IMG/VR virus record: IMGVR_UViG_3300032086_003797
Location: 1 to 64,000 of that record
DNA length: 64,000 nt
Direction: 5' to 3' (one strand)
Source: a virus
This document shows, in pieces, positions 44,283 through 58,859 of this stretch (positions are counted from its first letter, which is position 1; the number at the start of each line of letters is the position of its first letter). A program made the translations under genes and the position numbers. Under the pieces are notes generated by a model. That model was given only the letters and a program-made list of their open reading frames with translations, had not been told where the DNA came from and ran no database searches.

Positions 44283-44513
44283 ATGGCTACCCTAAATTTT
44301 ATTATGCCTAAAAGCCTGAAAGACGGCTTTTGCGCACGTCAACCTAAACAGAATAAGGTCAAGCATAGCTGGTTACCCTCAGGACAGACCCGTGCCCTCC
44401 CAGGAGGTAGTGTTGCCATAGAGTGCTACTGTAGGCATTGCAACGAGCGTGAGTGGAGCACAGTAACAAAAGTAGAGTTCGTAAAACTTACAAAACAATG
44501 GAGCGAGTTATAA
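44283..44513 (+). CDS. Small Zn-ribbon protein
   Basis: AAGGAG RBS; C..H...CxxC. Confidence 0.55.
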   Translation: MATLNFIMPKSLKDGFCARQPKQNKVKHSWLPSGQTRALPGGSVAIECYCRHCNEREWSTVTKVEFVKLTKQWSEL

Positions 44514-44770
44514 TGAAGCCAGTAAACAGAAGACTAATGGTCGAGCCCTATGAAGAGGAGCAGGACAAAAGCTCTTTCATCATTCCAGAGGAGTACCAAG
44601 AAAAGTCACACATAGCTTATAAGATTACAGCCACTTCTAATGATTGCAGCTTGGGTTTAGACGTAGGCGATATAGTGGTTGCACACAGCACAGACCCAGA
44701 GATTATCCACTATGAGGGTAGGCAGTATCATCTGTTGTTAGAAAATCGTGTGGTTTGTGTGGCTAGCTAG
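44513..44770 (+). CDS. GroES-like co-chaperonin
   Basis: MKPVNRRLMVEP...IIPE...VGDIV...Y.LLLE..V. Confidence 0.75.
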   Translation: MKPVNRRLMVEPYEEEQDKSSFIIPEEYQEKSHIAYKITATSNDCSLGLDVGDIVVAHSTDPEIIHYEGRQYHLLLENRVVCVAS

Positions 44771-46020
44771 CCGCCTATACACAGGTCCTCAAATATTTGC
44801 CTGATTTGCAAAAACACTGTTTCTGAATTGGCGGTTGGGGTGAATAGCCTTCTTTGTTCTGCATGTACGCACATGAGGAATGTATTGTGGTGTTCTTGAA
44901 GGGCGAAGACAAAAAGTTCATATCCTCCTGTGATAGCAAAGTTGCTTAACTCATTGCAGGACATCCCGATTTCTGTCTGAGCTTGTTCGTCGGTCATGGT
45001 AATGATAACCTTTTGTGCTCCTGACCTCCAAGAGAAAGGGTACTGATTCATGGTCCAATACATAGCATCTATCGTAGGCTCAAGCCCTGCGCTGGGGGCG
45101 TGCCGAGCATCCTCTAGAATTTGTAAAAACTCATCAGCCCCTACAAAGTTGCTAATAAATTGAGCGTGTCTATGGTGAACTACAATATCCTCATCTCCAC
45201 GGGTGCCCACGATAACTAGTCCAAATCGGAATGTACTAGTGATGGGATCACTCAGCAGTGGCTCAATGCCTCTTATCATTGACTCTATTTCATCATCAAA
45301 CGAACCAGAAATATCGAGAACAAAAACTAAATCTACACCCCGAGAATCAAAACCCTCATCAACTTCCCCATCACAATCATTGTCTAGATTATCGCACACT
45401 TCTTCTTGGGGGATAATTTGCCTATCACAGGGTCCATCAAAGCCACCGTTAGTGCAGTATCGGACACCAGCACGACACTCCCCAACACCCATTGTTCCAG
45501 CGGGTCCTTCATAGCAAACGATAGCAGTAGAATTTGCTATTCCCTCATCTATTGACCCATCGCAGTTGTTGTCTAGTCCATCGCATATCTCATCAGACGG
45601 ACCAATGTGTCCGCTACAGTACACAGCGCCGTTATCGCAGGTCATAACTCCTGGGGTGCAGACCCCAACCCCATAAGAAGTACCCTCTACAAATCCACAC
45701 AACTGATGCTTTTCTGGGTATGATTCGTCTATCTCGCCATCGCAGTCATTATCAATTCCATCGCATATTTCTTCGGAGGGACCTTTGGCACCCGTACACT
45801 CTGACCAGCCTTGAAAGTCGCAGGTTCTTAGTCCATAAGAGCACTGCCCTGGTCTTGCGGGTGGTGGATCTGTGACACCGTTAGGAAAATCTAATCCCTC
45901 GTGGTTGCACAATATTTGCTCACCTGGACGGCACTCAAGCGGCACAAGCTCCTCATCATCAGTACACGACTGACAAAAGACTAGTAAAACAATTATTAAT
46001 AGCTTGGTTATCTTGTCCAT
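44767..46020 (-). CDS. Lipoprotein with MopE-like Cys repeats and C-terminal vWA domain
   Basis: Signal peptide plus Cys; three CD.xDNxCDG.xDE repeats; MIDAS DISGS and TD. Confidence 0.8.
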   Translation of the reverse strand: MDKITKLLIIVLLVFCQSCTDDEELVPLECRPGEQILCNHEGLDFPNGVTDPPPARPGQCSYGLRTCDFQGWSECTGAKGPSEEICDGIDNDCDGEIDESYPEKHQLCGFVEGTSYGVGVCTPGVMTCDNGAVYCSGHIGPSDEICDGLDNNCDGSIDEGIANSTAIVCYEGPAGTMGVGECRAGVRYCTNGGFDGPCDRQIIPQEEVCDNLDNDCDGEVDEGFDSRGVDLVFVLDISGSFDDEIESMIRGIEPLLSDPITSTFRFGLVIVGTRGDEDIVVHHRHAQFISNFVGADEFLQILEDARHAPSAGLEPTIDAMYWTMNQYPFSWRSGAQKVIITMTDEQAQTEIGMSCNELSNFAITGGYELFVFALQEHHNTFLMCVHAEQRRLFTPTANSETVFLQIRQIFEDLCIGG

Positions 46021-46475
46021 TCGGCTACGCTCTCTAAGCAAGCCTTCTGATCATGAAAAAGTTTCATCTTAAACATCTCGCTACCAAGCCAGCTAAAAGA
46101 TAATTGTTTTGCTGGTAGGTCATCGGGAATGTCTGCACTTAATATAATGGGAGGGTTCGCCTCCCTGCCTGGCATTGCGAATGCTAAAAGTAATTGATTT
46201 CCTTTTGAGGTCTGAATCACGCCTCTGATCACGCCAACTCTATTAGCTGCGGGTATGCCTATGGCAATACGAGTCATAGAGTTAGGATTATTATCTAAGG
46301 TGTCTAACGTTTGGATAACCCACAAGCAATTACGTTTTTGACCTTGTAGGTAGTAGGTTGTTTGCTTGGGTATTATGATTTGCGGCGAAGGCTCGGCAAA
46401 AGCAAAAAAAGATATTATAGCAACAAGAGAGACTAATGAAAGTACAGAAGCTAAGACTATAGTTCTTTTGCGCAT
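46008..46475 (-). CDS. Secreted or membrane-anchored hypothetical protein
   Basis: Basic then hydrophobic N-terminus. Confidence 0.55.
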   Translation of the reverse strand: MRKRTIVLASVLSLVSLVAIISFFAFAEPSPQIIIPKQTTYYLQGQKRNCLWVIQTLDTLDNNPNSMTRIAIGIPAANRVGVIRGVIQTSKGNQLLLAFAMPGREANPPIILSADIPDDLPAKQLSFSWLGSEMFKMKLFHDQKACLESVAEWTR

Positions 46476-46484
46476 CCTTGCATA

Positions 46485-46781
46485 TTACTTTGCTTCCCCA
46501 GCATAGGTCACGAAAGGAAGCTTAGTTATCTCCTTGTATAGGGGCTTTTGAGTTTCCATGTCCATGAACTTTACGCCCTTTACAAGAGTAACTAGGACTT
46601 GCTTGGTAATATTTACGTCGTCTTTGGTATATTTCCATCGACCCTCAGTAGCTTCTTTCCAAGCCTGCTGTATAACAATTGAGGCTTGCTTCTGGCTCTC
46701 ATTATTGACCTCGCCCCCAAAAGAAGCTGAAGGAGATAGTAGTAAAAACGATATTGTTGCGATGATTGTTAGAATTTTCAT
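46485..46781 (-). CDS. Secreted hypothetical protein
   Basis: Signal peptide MKILTIIATISFLLLSPSA. Confidence 0.55.
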   Translation of the reverse strand: MKILTIIATISFLLLSPSASFGGEVNNESQKQASIVIQQAWKEATEGRWKYTKDDVNITKQVLVTLVKGVKFMDMETQKPLYKEITKLPFVTYAGEAK

Positions 46782-46869
46782 AACTTATTAGAATCCCACC
46801 TTTGACAATGAAGTGTCATAAACATTCGTAACTAGTCAACAAAACACCAAAATGCCTCATATTTACTAC

Positions 46870-47748
46870 ATGAGAGTAAAATTACCGATCCTAAGATTAG
46901 CCACTCTGCTGGTGTTATTACAAATGGGCTGCATGGGTGGATGTTATTCCACCAAGCAAGTGGTCAAGAAAGATGACAAGCCACACGAAAGGATGCCCTT
47001 CGCATCTTTTGTACGAATTGAGGCAACTCATGCTATCCAGGCATGTCAAACTATAACTGACAAAGATGGCAAAGAGGGCGAGCGATGCACAGTAGGTGCC
47101 GTTAGGTATACTTCGTCAGGAGCCATCATCGGTCATAGCGAAGTAGACCCTACAATCGCATACGCTTTGACTGCGGGACATTCTTGCCAAAAGAAGATAA
47201 AGAATAAGAAAATGGCAGGGTTCTCCTTGAACACGGTGGCTAGCACTTATGTCACTTTGTCCTATCGAGGCGTGTTGAAGGCAGCAGAGATAGTTGCATA
47301 TGAGATGACTTCGGATGTGTGCATACTCAGAGTGACTGGCTACAAGGCTAAGAAGCGCCCCAAAGTAATTCCAATTTCTAAAAAGATGCCAAAGATGGGC
47401 GAGAAGGTATACAACCCCGCCGCACCCAGAGGTATTTTTGGTCCAGGGATGTTGCTTATGTTTGACGGTTATTATGCAGGTGTTGGATATAAAAACTATA
47501 TGTTCTTCACGTTACCAACAAAGCCAGGCTCAAGCGGCTCGCCTATTTTGAATGAGAAGGGAGAGCTAGTATCGATGATATTTGCAGGATTCCCAGCCAT
47601 GGAAAACATCGGGCTAGGCTCAAATCTAAACGCAGTTCGTACATTTGTAGCCGAGACAATTGTGATATCAGAGATGGACCTGTGGGCGAAAAAGAATATG
47701 AACTTAGATTCTACTGAATCGAATACCATAGAGCCACCGAAACCGTGA
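46870..47748 (+). CDS. Exported trypsin-like (S1) serine protease, probable lipoprotein
   Basis: LTAGH, DVCIL and PGSSGSP triad motifs; signal peptide plus Cys. Confidence 0.85.
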   Translation: MRVKLPILRLATLLVLLQMGCMGGCYSTKQVVKKDDKPHERMPFASFVRIEATHAIQACQTITDKDGKEGERCTVGAVRYTSSGAIIGHSEVDPTIAYALTAGHSCQKKIKNKKMAGFSLNTVASTYVTLSYRGVLKAAEIVAYEMTSDVCILRVTGYKAKKRPKVIPISKKMPKMGEKVYNPAAPRGIFGPGMLLMFDGYYAGVGYKNYMFFTLPTKPGSSGSPILNEKGELVSMIFAGFPAMENIGLGSNLNAVRTFVAETIVISEMDLWAKKNMNLDSTESNTIEPPKP

Positions 47749-48221
47749 TGCCTCCAGCAAATCAGCGGGAGCGTGAAGCATATCAGAGAATTAAAGAGAA
47801 CGCATATAACGCCATGCACGAGCCGCAGGTCTACGACGTAACACCAGAGGCTATGCCTAAGACGAATTATCTGTCTGGCTTGGTGTGGACTTCTATGGTG
47901 GCAACATTAGTTTGTGCTATTTTCATGGGCTTTTTATTATATCTTTATAATCAGATAGATTTAGAGGGAAGCCTACAGAAAGCTACCAATCATGCAGTGG
48001 TCAACCTTGAGCGGGTTATCTCTAAGCAGAGCGAAGAAATAAACAATCTAAAAGAAGAAAACAAAAAGATTCATAATCATATAAAGTTTTGGACGCCCAT
48101 AGATTGCAAGCCTAAAGAAAAATGGGTGATACCAGGCATCGGCTTGCCAGAGATACCAATCCAGCGCCAAAGCAGAAATAAAATACAAAGGTATGGTGAC
48201 TTCCAATGCTTCTCTTATTAG
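47745..48221 (+). CDS. Bitopic membrane protein with coiled coil
   Basis: Single TM (about aa 45-68) followed by heptad region. Confidence 0.6.
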   Translation: MMPPANQREREAYQRIKENAYNAMHEPQVYDVTPEAMPKTNYLSGLVWTSMVATLVCAIFMGFLLYLYNQIDLEGSLQKATNHAVVNLERVISKQSEEINNLKEENKKIHNHIKFWTPIDCKPKEKWVIPGIGLPEIPIQRQSRNKIQRYGDFQCFSY

Positions 48222-49006
48222 TAATAATATTATCATTAGTTTTTATTCATGAGCTTGGGCATTATGTCGTCGGTCGTTTGTGCGGCGTCGGCATCCAAGA
48301 ATTCTCAGTGGGCTTTGGACCGAAAATTTTTTCATTCAACGCATTTGGCAACAAGTGGTCTCTCGGTCTACTGCCTCTCGGCGGCTATGTAAAGTTCGAG
48401 GGTGAAGAAGATTATAATAATACAACACGAAATCCTAAGTCTTTTTGGGCAGCACATCCACTAAGGAGAATGATAATAGCCCTAGCAGGACCAGCTACAA
48501 ACCTAGCTCTACCTTATGCTATATTTTTCTTTTACTTGTGGGGTATGCCTTGGTCAGATGTTAAAGCACCCGATGGTTCAAATGTTGGCACGGTTAGTGC
48601 CCCATGGGCTTGGAAGGGAAGTGTTGACACAACACATAAAATGTATTATAATATATACAAATCAATAGACATCATAAAAGACAGGGGAGTATCAGTAAAG
48701 GACGTCGGCGGACCCGTAGCTATCTACGAGATCACAGAACAGGCACAGGCAAGATCAACCCAAACTAAAGACAACGGCTTTATTTATCAGTGGATAGCTT
48801 TCTTGAGTATCAACTTGGGAATAATTAATTTACTACCAATCCCTTTACTAGATGGCGGACATGTGGTATTCTCTATAGCAGAGACAATAATGGGACGTAA
48901 AGTTAAGTACAGGACTCGTGCTTGGCTATCCTATGTTGGTTTGGCATTTGTGGTAGGAATAATGGCGTTAGCAATCACTTCAGATATAGGAAGGTTGATA
49001 GGATAA
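48206..49006 (+). CDS. Site-2 intramembrane metalloprotease (RseP/M50), PDZ-less
   Basis: HELGH, FSVGFGP, PLGGYV, AGP..N, GGPV, NLLPIPLLDGGH. Confidence 0.92.
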   Translation: MLLLLVIILSLVFIHELGHYVVGRLCGVGIQEFSVGFGPKIFSFNAFGNKWSLGLLPLGGYVKFEGEEDYNNTTRNPKSFWAAHPLRRMIIALAGPATNLALPYAIFFFYLWGMPWSDVKAPDGSNVGTVSAPWAWKGSVDTTHKMYYNIYKSIDIIKDRGVSVKDVGGPVAIYEITEQAQARSTQTKDNGFIYQWIAFLSINLGIINLLPIPLLDGGHVVFSIAETIMGRKVKYRTRAWLSYVGLAFVVGIMALAITSDIGRLIG

Positions 49007-49248: not shown

Positions 49249-49626
49249 ATGGAGGAAATAAAAATGTCAGATGAAGAAAATAAAGTATCAGACGAAGAAT
49301 TGCCAGATGACTTAATTCCTAAGCCACCTTCAAAATTGGCACCTAGAGGGATTACTAGTTTCACGGTATATCGCCAGGCAGATGAAACAGGAGTCTCAGG
49401 CGAAGGCGTTGTGATCGAAGGTGTGAAGATGGCAACGGGTCAGTGTGTGGTGCATTGGCTCTACCCACCACCTCGTGGTGGTATCGCTATCTTTGATAGT
49501 ATGAGTGACTTTGTAAAGGTACACATCGAGCCACACCCAGCCAATCAGACGATCATCACATATCAGGATGGCACCAAAGAAGTCTTCGGTAAAAAAGAAG
49601 AGCTTGACAAATCCGAAGAAGAATAG
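49249..49626 (+). CDS. Hypothetical phage protein
   Basis: DETGVSGEGVV.EGV motif. Confidence 0.6.
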   Translation: MEEIKMSDEENKVSDEELPDDLIPKPPSKLAPRGITSFTVYRQADETGVSGEGVVIEGVKMATGQCVVHWLYPPPRGGIAIFDSMSDFVKVHIEPHPANQTIITYQDGTKEVFGKKEELDKSEEE

Positions 49627-49632
49627 TATAAT
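49604..49632 (+). promoter_or_regulatory. Consensus sigma70 promoter for dnaE
   Basis: TTGACA-17-TATAAT. Confidence 0.85.
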
Positions 49633-57501: not shown

Positions 57502-57768
57502 TTGTATAAGTTAGAAAATGGTAGCATTTGTTTTGATTTCTTTGACAGGCTCAGTAAGTCATGCAGCAAGCAAGAATGTAGACACTGGATCGACTACGAG
57601 GGAGATAGTAACTGTTCAGTAGTTTGTGCAAATAAAAACCCAGGCGGTCTAAGCCTGCGAGACGTCGCCGATCGATTACAGATTAGCTTCCCGAGAGTCA
57701 AGCAAATTCAAGATAAAGCAATGGAAAAAGCAGGCAAAAGAGGACTTTTTGATTTCATGGAGGAATAA
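57502..57768 (+). CDS. Stand-alone sigma70 region-4-like HTH protein
   Basis: LSLRDVADRLQISFPRVKQIQDKA; Cys-rich N-terminus. Confidence 0.65.
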   Translation: MYKLENGSICFDFFDRLSKSCSKQECRHWIDYEGDSNCSVVCANKNPGGLSLRDVADRLQISFPRVKQIQDKAMEKAGKRGLFDFMEE

Positions 57769-58481: not shown

Positions 58482-58859
58482 ATGAGAGCAAGTGTAAGAG
58501 ATATTTTGAACCTGCTAAAGTTTGTAGGAGCTAGTGACGATGATAAGGTTGTCACCGCTGAAAAGCTTTTTGTAGCCAACAGGGTTCTTAATATAGCATA
58601 TGAGAAAATCGATAAAGGGCACATGGAGGTGGCAGACTTATCCCAGTATATCCAAGCCCTGATAGAGTACCGAGATGGGACGCTAGAATTTAATTTTGAA
58701 ATCGATGAACAGACAGGCGAAGATAAGGTATACTTTACACGCCAAGAGCAATCTATATACAGTAAGTACGCTGGTCAATTCAGGAACAGCAATCTTTATA
58801 ACGACTTGAAGTCAAGCAAAGGAAAATCTACACATGCCGAAGAAGACGAAGAAGAATAA
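58482..58859 (+). CDS. Hypothetical protein
   Basis: ORF directly upstream of the clpP-like gene. Confidence 0.55.
   Translation: MRASVRDILNLLKFVGASDDDKVVTAEKLFVANRVLNIAYEKIDKGHMEVADLSQYIQALIEYRDGTLEFNFEIDEQTGEDKVYFTRQEQSIYSKYAGQFRNSNLYNDLKSSKGKSTHAEEDEEE

What the first reader, a model, noticed from the sequence alone, without database searches (positions are those of the whole stretch)
46870..49006. Phage-encoded regulated intramembrane proteolysis (RIP) cassette
Seen: three overlapping genes encode an exported trypsin-like protease, a single-TM protein with N-terminal and coiled-coil C-terminal domains, and a PDZ-less RseP-type site-2 protease with intact HExxH and LDG. A ClpP (58834) and a sigma-4 HTH protein (57502) lie elsewhere in the window. 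Known: DegS, RseP and ClpXP sequentially degrade the bitopic anti-sigma RseA. Inference: this is a self-contained site-1/substrate/site-2 relay. It may sense envelope status or superinfection (lysis timing), or hijack host ECF or developmental signalling.
Basis: partly seen in the sequence, partly recalled or inferred. Interest (0 to 1): 0.72.

Follow-up and report, generated by a model that had tools for sequence, protein, structure and literature searches.

The report
Phage RseP-type protease with membrane partner
An uncultured marine T4-type phage carries a stripped-down copy of the bacterial membrane-cutting protease RseP, always paired in its relatives with a small phage-only membrane protein. 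The neighbouring DegS-like protease belongs to a separate gene set, so the proposed three-step relay is only partly supported.

Summary
The three genes are real and intact.
- 46852/46870-47748: a lipoprotein HtrA/DegS-fold serine protease with no PDZ domain ("S1").
- 47748-48221: a type-II single-pass leucine-zipper protein ("TM").
- 48206-49006: an RseP-type M50 protease whose PDZ tandem is cleanly missing.

Comparative genomics splits the trio into two modules.
- TM and M50 overlap and travel together in about 25 viral contigs, across at least three genomic contexts.
- S1 is instead tied to a divergent VWA/MopE lipoprotein plus a small exported protein in 45 of 51 loci (a second small exported gene is syntenic but usually too diverged to detect). 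In two near-complete relatives it lies 60-75 kb from TM-M50.
- S1 abuts TM-M50 only in this phage's subclade. A second arrangement (DnaJ-M50 | VWA block | S1, without TM) also exists.
- TM also occurs without M50, and M50 without TM.

I found no anti-sigma domain in TM and no ECF sigma in the genome. TM's cytoplasmic head is missing in distant family members.

Best reading (about 0.4): a filter-less intramembrane protease recruited to process a pre-existing phage membrane protein. It is not a DegS-RseA-RseP-type sigma relay. Other first-stage notes in this scan flagged the same pair on other DNA. No paper on phage-encoded site-2 proteases turned up.

The parts
46852..47748 (+). S1: exported lipoprotein with an HtrA/DegS-fold serine protease and no PDZ domain. 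The likely start is the ATG at 46870.
   Evidence: Trypsin_2 E 3e-11. The catalytic His, Asp and Ser and the lipobox Cys are invariant. The AF2 model has pLDDT 86, and its best PDB matches are DegS-deltaPDZ, HtrA1 and DegP/Q with TMt 0.74-0.82.
47748..48221 (+). TM: a 157-aa type-II bitopic protein. It has a roughly 40-aa cytoplasmic head, a highly conserved TM segment, a periplasmic leucine zipper (Asn105 at an 'a' position) and the LWTPxxC and W.IPGYGLPE motifs.
   Evidence: Alignment A1 and conservation by region. The family has no named cellular member: 15 hits among 5.8e9 proteins and 23 HMM representatives. Nothing significant in Pfam or PDB.
48206..49006 (+). M50: a 266-aa group-I (RseP/RasP-type) site-2 metalloprotease lacking the PDZ tandem.
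   Evidence: Peptidase_M50 E 6.5e-57. It aligns to 7W6Y, 7W6X and 9J82 on both sides of the PDZ gap. The AF2 model has pLDDT 90, with TMq 0.78-0.80 to RasP and RseP. The viral clade is monophyletic at 100/99 support.
44767..46041 (-). Cys-rich lipoprotein with MopE-type repeats and a VWA domain. It is the constant partner of S1.
   Evidence: Pfam Cu-binding_MopE 3.8e-15 and VWA 9e-8. It lies upstream and divergent from S1 in 45 of 51 S1 loci.
46008..46475 (-). 155-aa protein with a signal anchor; part of the S1/VWA module.
   Evidence: The N-terminal hydrophobic segment is visible. A homologue is present in 45 of 51 S1 loci.
46485..46781 (-). 98-aa secreted protein; part of the S1/VWA module.
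   Evidence: A signal-peptide-like N-terminus is visible. A syntenic gene of similar size is seen in types A, D and F. Sequence matches are weak (11 of 51 loci).
46782..46851 (.). Divergent intergenic region between the two halves of the S1/VWA module. It carries a conserved GTAACTAGT motif.
   Evidence: Alignment A5. No convincing sigma-70 -10 element was found.
49604..49632 (+). Perfect TTGACA-N17-TATAAT promoter in front of the PolIII-alpha gene. It marks the downstream limit of the unit.
   Evidence: It is one of only two perfect matches in 64 kb, against 0.05 expected. It is conserved at the same place in relatives.

Best explanation
The locus is two conserved phage modules placed side by side.

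Module 1 is TM plus M50. M50 is an RseP-type intramembrane metalloprotease that entered this group of marine T4-type phages once and has no PDZ size filter. I infer that it can take full-length type-II membrane proteins without prior trimming. Its gene was recruited next to an older phage gene for a dimeric, leucine-zipper, type-II membrane protein (TM). I propose that M50 cuts TM inside the membrane and so sets the amount or lifetime of TM. TM's own job is envelope-directed and still unknown: its architecture resembles FtsL, i-spanins and class-III holins.

Module 2 is the PDZ-less HtrA/DegS-fold lipoprotein S1, together with a Cys-rich VWA/MopE lipoprotein and two small exported proteins. 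It acts in the periplasm.

Module 2 lies next to M50 in two different gene orders. The two modules may therefore work in the same compartment or pathway, but S1 is not an obligatory site-1 step.

Shown: the gene identities, the motifs, the loss of PDZ and the synteny patterns. Inferred: that M50 cleaves TM, and every downstream consequence.
For: - TM and M50 overlap by 16-22 nt and stay adjacent in about 25 distinct viral contigs down to 44-47% M50 identity.
- They stay adjacent in at least three contexts: after S1 (type A), between an Acb5-like gene and PolIII (L020), and among capsid-cargo or SbcCD genes (type D).
- Near-complete genomes G005 and G006 each hold a single TM gene and a single M50 gene, as one adjacent pair.
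- Positive charges on the N-side of the TM segment throughout the family point to an N-in, C-out topology. That is the topology of known RseP substrates (PMC10470546).
- The TM segment is the best conserved region of the protein: 0.77 mean column identity against 0.56 for the N-domain.
- M50 keeps every catalytic and gating element: HExxH, NxxPxxxLDG, the MRE beta-hairpin, GGPV and the TM4 Asp.
- M50 lacks the PDZ tandem, which acts as a size-exclusion filter in RseP (PMC9401612).
- TM exists in related phages without M50. TM therefore has a function of its own, which fits 'client of M50' better than 'dedicated inhibitor of M50'.
Against: - No cleavage or binding has been measured.
- M50 exists without TM in types E and F, so TM cannot be its only substrate or an obligate partner.
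- Gene overlap is common in this dense genome. The PhyH gene that replaces M50 also overlaps TM.
- The TM segment is just as conserved in lineages without M50, so its conservation is not explained by recognition by M50.
- Co-operonic single-pass proteins next to an S2P can be regulators, as with SpoIVFA (from memory).
Confidence: 0.4

Rival explanations
1. M50 mainly works on other membrane substrates, and TM is only a neighbour, adaptor or regulator. Candidate substrates are host anti-sigma factors (forcing an envelope-stress or ECF response), leftover signal peptides or mislocalised precursors of the phage's own exported proteins, or small membrane toxins.
For: - M50 occurs without TM.
- In type F it follows a full-length DnaJ and abuts the exported S1/VWA module. 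In the window a GroES-like gene flanks the island.
- M50 lies within 3 kb of the S1 module in two different gene orders, in 13 of 51 S1 loci.
- RseP clears signal peptides and small membrane proteins such as HokB (PMC10470546).
- Extra RasP improves secretion in Bacillus (PMC5381017).
- Without PDZ domains, the filter that keeps RseP off intact substrates is gone (PMC9401612).
Against: - This does not explain why TM-M50 stays an overlapping pair after moving to new genomic contexts.
- The host is unknown, so no target anti-sigma factor can be named.
- The chaperone neighbours differ between lineages and may be coincidental.
Confidence: 0.3
2. It is a self-contained three-step relay: S1 trims the periplasmic domain of TM, M50 then cuts the TM segment, and a cytoplasmic signalling domain is released, possibly finished off by ClpP.
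For: - In type A the three genes are contiguous and coupled: TGATG at S1/TM and a 16-nt overlap at TM/M50.
- S1 has a DegS/HtrA fold.
- S1, TM and M50 co-occur in all three near-complete genomes of the clade: G000, G005 and G006.
- A ClpP-like gene exists at 58834.
Against: - S1 is adjacent to TM in only 9 of 51 S1 loci and is otherwise linked to VWA/o46008.
- S1 lies 60-75 kb from TM-M50 in G005 and G006.
- The S1 family (318 clusters) is far larger than the TM family (15) or the PDZ-less M50 clade (about 32).
- A PDZ-less S2P should not need site-1 trimming.
- The N-domain is short, least conserved and nearly absent in distant TM homologues.
- I found no anti-sigma family and no ECF sigma.
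Confidence: 0.12
3. TM is a lysis protein: an i-spanin, or a class-III holin like T4 gpT. Its link to M50 is either incidental or a lysis-timing device.
For: - The architecture fits: N-in, one TM segment, a periplasmic coiled coil and conserved periplasmic Cys residues.
- 18 of 20 family members match phrog_739 'Rz-like spanin' at about 1e-4 to 1e-5.
- It is the only such match in the genome.
- A strongly conserved TM segment would be consistent with a membrane-active protein.
Against: - phrog_739 also matches all 14 cellular control genomes, so the hit reflects a generic TM plus coiled coil.
- hhalign against T4 i-spanin PseT.3 gives probability 1%.
- No small outer-membrane lipoprotein gene is embedded in TM, overlaps it or follows it in any lineage.
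- A 40-aa cytoplasmic head is atypical for i-spanins (from memory).
Confidence: 0.1

Closest known systems
E. coli RseP / B. subtilis RasP (group I site-2 proteases; PDB 7W6X, 7W6Y, 9J82, 9A6W)
   Same: The four-TM core is the same: HExxH in TM1, a membrane-reentrant beta-hairpin, the PCT region with GGPV, NxxPxxxLDG in TM3 and a conserved Asp in TM4. Sequence E-values are 1e-42 to 1e-46, and fold TMq is 0.78-0.80.
   Different: The whole PDZ tandem is replaced by about 14 residues. The gene is phage-encoded, in a monophyletic viral clade of 266-269-aa proteins. In most members it is paired with a protein that has no named cellular homologue.
DegS-RseA-RseP sigma-E cascade
   Same: Both have an HtrA-fold exported protease, a type-II single-pass protein and an RseP-type protease.
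   Different: I found no anti-sigma domain, no ECF sigma in the phage and no PDZ sensor or filter on either protease. S1 is anchored by a lipid rather than a TM helix. The three genes are linked only in one subclade.
B. subtilis FtsL, a RasP substrate (Bramkamp et al. 2006, cited in PMC5381017)
   Same: Both are small type-II proteins with a cytoplasmic head, one TM segment and a periplasmic leucine zipper. FtsL levels rise when RasP is deleted.
   Different: Homology is not demonstrable. The Atlas feature score to an FtsL cluster is 0.81, below the useful range. Pfam DivIC matches only 5 of 20 members, at best E 0.011.
SpoIVFA/BofA-SpoIVFB with the SpoIVB signalling protease
   Same: In both, a single-pass membrane protein is encoded directly upstream of an M50 protease, and an exported serine protease acts on the system (from memory).
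   Different: M50 here is RseP-type, not SpoIVFB-type: TMq to 8VJL is only 0.40. No CBS or LytM domain was detected. TM exists without M50, so it is not a dedicated inhibitor.

Membership tests
Peptidase M50, group I (RseP/RasP type) | HExxH in TM1 and NxxPxxxLDG in TM3 (the zinc ligands) | tested here: met
   H15, E16, H19, N208, P211 and D216 are invariant in 32 sequences. Pfam E 6.5e-57.
Peptidase M50, group I (RseP/RasP type) | Membrane-reentrant beta-hairpin, PCT region and TM4 Asp | tested here: met
   AF2 strands at 30-46 and 49-64. It aligns to RseP on both sides of the PDZ gap. G168, G169, P170 and D260 are invariant.
Peptidase M50, group I (RseP/RasP type) | One or two periplasmic PDZ domains between TM2 and TM3 | tested here: not met
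   There is no PDZ Pfam hit. The profile skips residues of about 122-310 of 7W6Y. Cellular relatives carry PF17820, PF00595 and PF13180; the viral clade does not.
DegS-RseA-RseP type anti-sigma RIP cascade | The substrate carries an anti-sigma domain, and a cognate ECF sigma exists | tested here: not met
   No anti-sigma family appears among the Pfam matches listed for the 20 TM proteins at E up to 1 (25 of 43 families shown). The 95%-complete genome has no Sigma70_r2 or r4_2 match.
DegS-RseA-RseP type anti-sigma RIP cascade | The site-1, substrate and site-2 genes are functionally linked (here: conserved together) | tested here: not met
   The trio is contiguous only in type A, about 10 contigs. 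S1 is adjacent to TM in 9 of 51 S1 loci.
HtrA/DegS (S1C) proteases | Chymotrypsin fold with a His-Asp-Ser triad | tested here: met
   The triad is invariant. The top Foldseek hits are DegS-deltaPDZ, HtrA1 and DegP/Q.
HtrA/DegS (S1C) proteases | C-terminal PDZ domain(s) | tested here: not met
   There is no PDZ hit. The model ends in a single long helix at 253-277.
Rz-type i-spanin | Partner o-spanin lipoprotein gene that is embedded, overlapping or adjacent | tested here: not met
   No such ORF exists in the window or in type B, C or D loci.
Rz-type i-spanin | Sequence membership | tested here: inconclusive
   phrog_739 matches at about 1e-5 in 18 of 20 members, but that family also matches all 14 cellular control genomes. 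hhalign against T4 PseT.3 gives probability 1%.
FtsL/FtsB/DivIC | Pfam DivIC or FtsL match above threshold | tested here: not met
   DivIC matches 5 of 20 members, at best E 0.011. The Atlas score of 0.81 is only a lead.

The most novel reading that the evidence does not exclude
The phage carries sensor-less versions of both proteases of the bacterial envelope-stress relay: a DegS-fold enzyme without its PDZ switch and an RseP without its PDZ filter. It uses them to cut membrane proteins on its own schedule. One possibility is that they destroy host anti-sigma factors, forcing or rewiring an ECF or envelope response. Another is that they process its own leucine-zipper membrane protein, setting the timing of an envelope event such as lysis, a block to division or exclusion of other phages. 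Either would be the first virus-encoded intramembrane proteolysis system.
Probability: 0.2. Interest if true: 0.85.

Novelty: new variant of a known kind. Interest (0 to 1): 0.6.

Why it matters
Site-2 proteases are known as cellular signalling and membrane-housekeeping enzymes. I found no report of a virus-encoded one in three full-text searches. This is a monophyletic clade of phage RseP homologues that has naturally lost the PDZ filter, so it offers a natural experiment on what that filter does. It also comes with a small, conserved, phage-only candidate client that can be tested directly in E. coli. If M50 acts on host proteins, it would be a new route of host takeover through the envelope-stress machinery. 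The work also corrects the gene-cassette picture: the DegS-like protease belongs to a separate four-gene exported module that is widespread in marine T4-type phages and has no assigned function.

Tried and rejected
- Spanin reading. The PHROG hit is non-specific. There is no similarity to T4 PseT.3 and no o-spanin partner gene.
- A PHROG scan of ten other membrane or lipoprotein ORFs of the genome, looking for a separate lysis set, found nothing useful.
- Anti-sigma or ECF reading. No such domains or sigma factors were found.
- TM against PDB sequences gave only coiled-coil noise such as geminin, with E above 0.4.
- The Atlas structure search for TM rests on a poor model (pTM 0.27) and gave nothing usable.
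- M50 against GenBank phages gave only partial hits below 41% identity. The two annotated ones are labelled RseP on long records, which I judge to be bacterial DNA filed as phage.
- Four type-C records were searched for an M50 elsewhere. None was found, but those records are only 4-18% complete, so absence is not shown.
- The sigma-70 promoter scan of the locus gave no more hits than shuffled sequence, so expression timing stays unknown.
- Host identity stays unknown. The nearest isolates by portal protein are Microcystis phage Mel-JY01 at 46% and Flavobacterium phage immuto at 38%.
Full report
**Setting.** The window is the first 64 kb of a 174.6-kb IMG/VR virus record that is 95% complete. 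Nearly all genes are on the + strand. It encodes a terminase, portal, major head protein and a 1028-aa tail sheath, so it is a myovirus. The nearest isolates by portal protein are distant: Microcystis phage Mel-JY01 at 46%, Flavobacterium phage immuto at 38% and Rhodothermus phage RM378. Homologues come largely from marine metagenomes, including Tara.

- S1 (46852-47748; likely start at 46870) matches Trypsin_2 at E 3e-11.
  - Its N-terminus has a signal peptide ending in a lipobox Cys that is invariant in close orthologues and nearly so across the family. His104, Asp149 and Ser222 are invariant across 31 orthologues.
  - An AF2 model (pLDDT 86) finds DegS-deltaPDZ, HtrA1, DegP and DegQ as best PDB matches, with TMt 0.74-0.82.
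  - It has no PDZ domain.
- TM starts at the ATG at 47748, which shares its A with the S1 TGA stop.
  - It has a cytoplasmic head of about 40 aa and one TM segment.
  - The periplasmic helix has a clean a/d heptad with an invariant Asn at an 'a' position.
  - The conserved motifs LWTPxxC and W.IPGYGLPE follow the helix.
  - Positive charges flank the N-side of the TM segment throughout the family, which indicates a type-II topology.
- M50 (48206-49006) overlaps TM by 16 nt and matches Peptidase_M50 at E 6.5e-57.
  - A profile of the clade aligns to the solved RseP structures at residues 4-112 and 127-264, skipping the tandem PDZ region.
  - The AF2 model (pLDDT 90) superposes on RasP and RseP at TMq 0.78-0.80, and on SpoIVFB or MjS2P only at about 0.4.
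  - HExxH, NxxPxxxLDG, GGPV and the TM4 Asp are invariant.

**Who has these genes.**

- TM has 15 relatives among 5.8 billion proteins and 23 representatives in an exhaustive HMM search. None carries a cellular name.
- The 266-269-aa PDZ-less M50 proteins form a distinct set of about 32 clusters. The next hits are cellular RseP proteins with PDZ domains, matching only over the TM core.
- In a maximum-likelihood tree the viral M50 proteins are monophyletic (100/99). This fits a single capture and PDZ loss.
- S1 belongs to a much larger family of 318 clusters of proteins of about 296 aa from metagenomes, none carrying an organism name.

**Synteny splits the trio.**

| Type | Gene order | Where seen |
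|---|---|---|
| A | RNR - GroES-like - [VWA/MopE, o46008, o46485 on the minus strand] - S1 - TM - M50 - Acb5-like - PolIII | about 10 contigs, including the window |
| B | Acb5-like - TM - M50 - PolIII, without S1 | L020 |
| C | TM kept, M50 replaced by a PhyH-type dioxygenase | 4 contigs plus P0140 |
| Deeper branch | Acb5-like - TM - PolIII directly | P0145 |
| D | TM-M50 as an overlapping pair among capsid-cargo or SbcCD genes | about 17 contigs |
| E | M50 at 39% identity, without TM | L010-L012 |
| F | DnaJ - M50 \| VWA, o46008, o46485 \| S1, with no TM detected | 5 contigs |

- In near-complete type-D genomes (G005 at 98%, G006 at 100%) there is one TM-M50 pair. The S1 orthologue lies 60-75 kb away.
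- That distant S1 is again divergent from VWA, o46008 and o46485 homologues.
- Of 51 S1 loci, 45 have VWA and o46008 upstream. Only 9 have TM next door, and 13 have M50 within 3 kb.
- The conserved units are therefore [VWA <- o46008 <- o46485][-> S1] and [TM -> M50]. The window's subclade joins them.

**What this means for mechanism.**

- In E. coli RseP the PDZ tandem is a size-exclusion filter that keeps intact substrates out until a site-1 cut. PCT-H2, TM4 (D446) and the MRE beta-sheet then gate and unwind the substrate (PMC9401612).
- The phage enzyme keeps the gate and the catalytic core but not the filter. A prior site-1 cut should therefore be unnecessary.
- RseP substrates are type-II single-pass proteins. 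They include small membrane proteins and signal peptides (PMC10470546).
- TM has the right topology. It stays fused to M50 through at least two relocations. It predates M50 in the phage lineage.
- This favours 'M50 was recruited to process TM' over 'TM is a dedicated inhibitor of M50'.
- Against an exclusive relationship, M50 survives without TM in types E and F. The TM helix is equally conserved where M50 is absent.

**The sigma-relay picture fails its defining tests.**

- No anti-sigma family is among the Pfam matches listed for the 20 TM proteins at E up to 1.
- The genome has no Sigma70_r2 or r4_2 match.
- The 88-aa protein at 57502 scores just under the Sigma70_r4 cut-off.
- The cytoplasmic head is the least conserved folded part of TM (0.56 against 0.77 for the TM segment). 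It shrinks to 7-12 residues in distant members.

**Residual support for a link between S1 and M50.**

- The modules co-occur in all three near-complete genomes of the clade: G000, G005 and G006.
- They are neighbours in two different gene orders (A and F).
- Because the M50 subclades form a polytomy, this could be one ancestral adjacency or two events.
- Type F adds a DnaJ, and the window adds a GroES-like gene. This hints at an envelope or proteostasis theme and at the rival in which M50 clears signal peptides or precursors, as extra RasP does in Bacillus (PMC5381017).

**TM's own function is unresolved.**

- The spanin match (phrog_739) is generic, since it hits all 14 cellular control genomes.
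- T4 PseT.3 is unrelated by hhalign.
- FtsL/DivIC similarity is sub-threshold.
- FtsL is nevertheless a useful analogue. It is a leucine-zipper type-II protein whose level is controlled by RasP.

**Limits.**

- The complex predictor was unavailable.
- No transcription timing could be inferred.
- The host is unknown.
- Most related records are fragments.

**Earlier notes and literature.**

- Other first-stage notes in this scan reported the same PDZ-less RseP plus overlapping single-pass protein on other DNA. These are unchecked notes and are not independent evidence.
- No paper on phage-encoded S2Ps was found in the held library.

Noticed in passing
window 48624-48652 and 49604-49632: These are the only two perfect TTGACA-N17-TATAAT matches in 64 kb (0.05 expected), and they lie 1 kb apart. 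The one before PolIII-alpha is conserved in relatives. The one inside the M50 ORF is specific to this phage, so it may be an internal early promoter for the two small downstream genes or a chance match.
   Followed up: partly
window 44453-44770 (+): A 105-aa GroES/Cpn10-like protein (Pfam E 6.5e-6), like T4 gp31, sits between the class II RNR gene and the VWA lipoprotein gene.
   Followed up: no
L026 4404-5348; L021 767-1663; L056 615-1112: In some relatives a PhyH-type 2OG-Fe(II) dioxygenase occupies exactly the slot that M50 holds elsewhere, between TM and PolIII. This slot appears to be a hot spot for accessory genes.
   Followed up: partly
L110 3610-6084 (record G010): Upstream of the type-F M50 lie three genes: a 214-aa lipoprotein-like protein with a WCPAC thioredoxin-type motif, a 141-aa signal-anchored protein and a full-length DnaJ (J domain, Zn finger and C-domain). 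Together they form a phage envelope or proteostasis cluster.
   Followed up: partly
window 44767-46781 (-) plus 46852-47748 (+): This is a four-gene exported module: a Cys-rich MopE-repeat/VWA lipoprotein, two small exported proteins and the HtrA-like lipoprotein. It is conserved in at least 45 marine viral contigs and has no assigned function. It deserves its own study.
   Followed up: partly
L007 4697-5521; L008 2436-3260; L054 1860-2612: These roughly 250-274-aa proteins carry the capsid-cargo-type N-terminal tag (MKLIMENWRGFLQE) and a conserved HE(I/L)xH motif. They may be a packaged metalloprotease. They have no Pfam hit.
   Followed up: no
window 49249-49626 (+): This 125-aa protein is conserved next to TM or PolIII in all relatives. 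Its homologue in L054 carries a precomputed Pfam label PF26761 (Acb5). The local Pfam copy gave no hit for it.
   Followed up: no
genome G000 88385-89157 (outside the window): Two adjacent small ORFs have N-terminal hydrophobic segments. One begins ..KGFTLVLAV.., which is reminiscent of a prepilin or pseudopilin leader.
   Followed up: no
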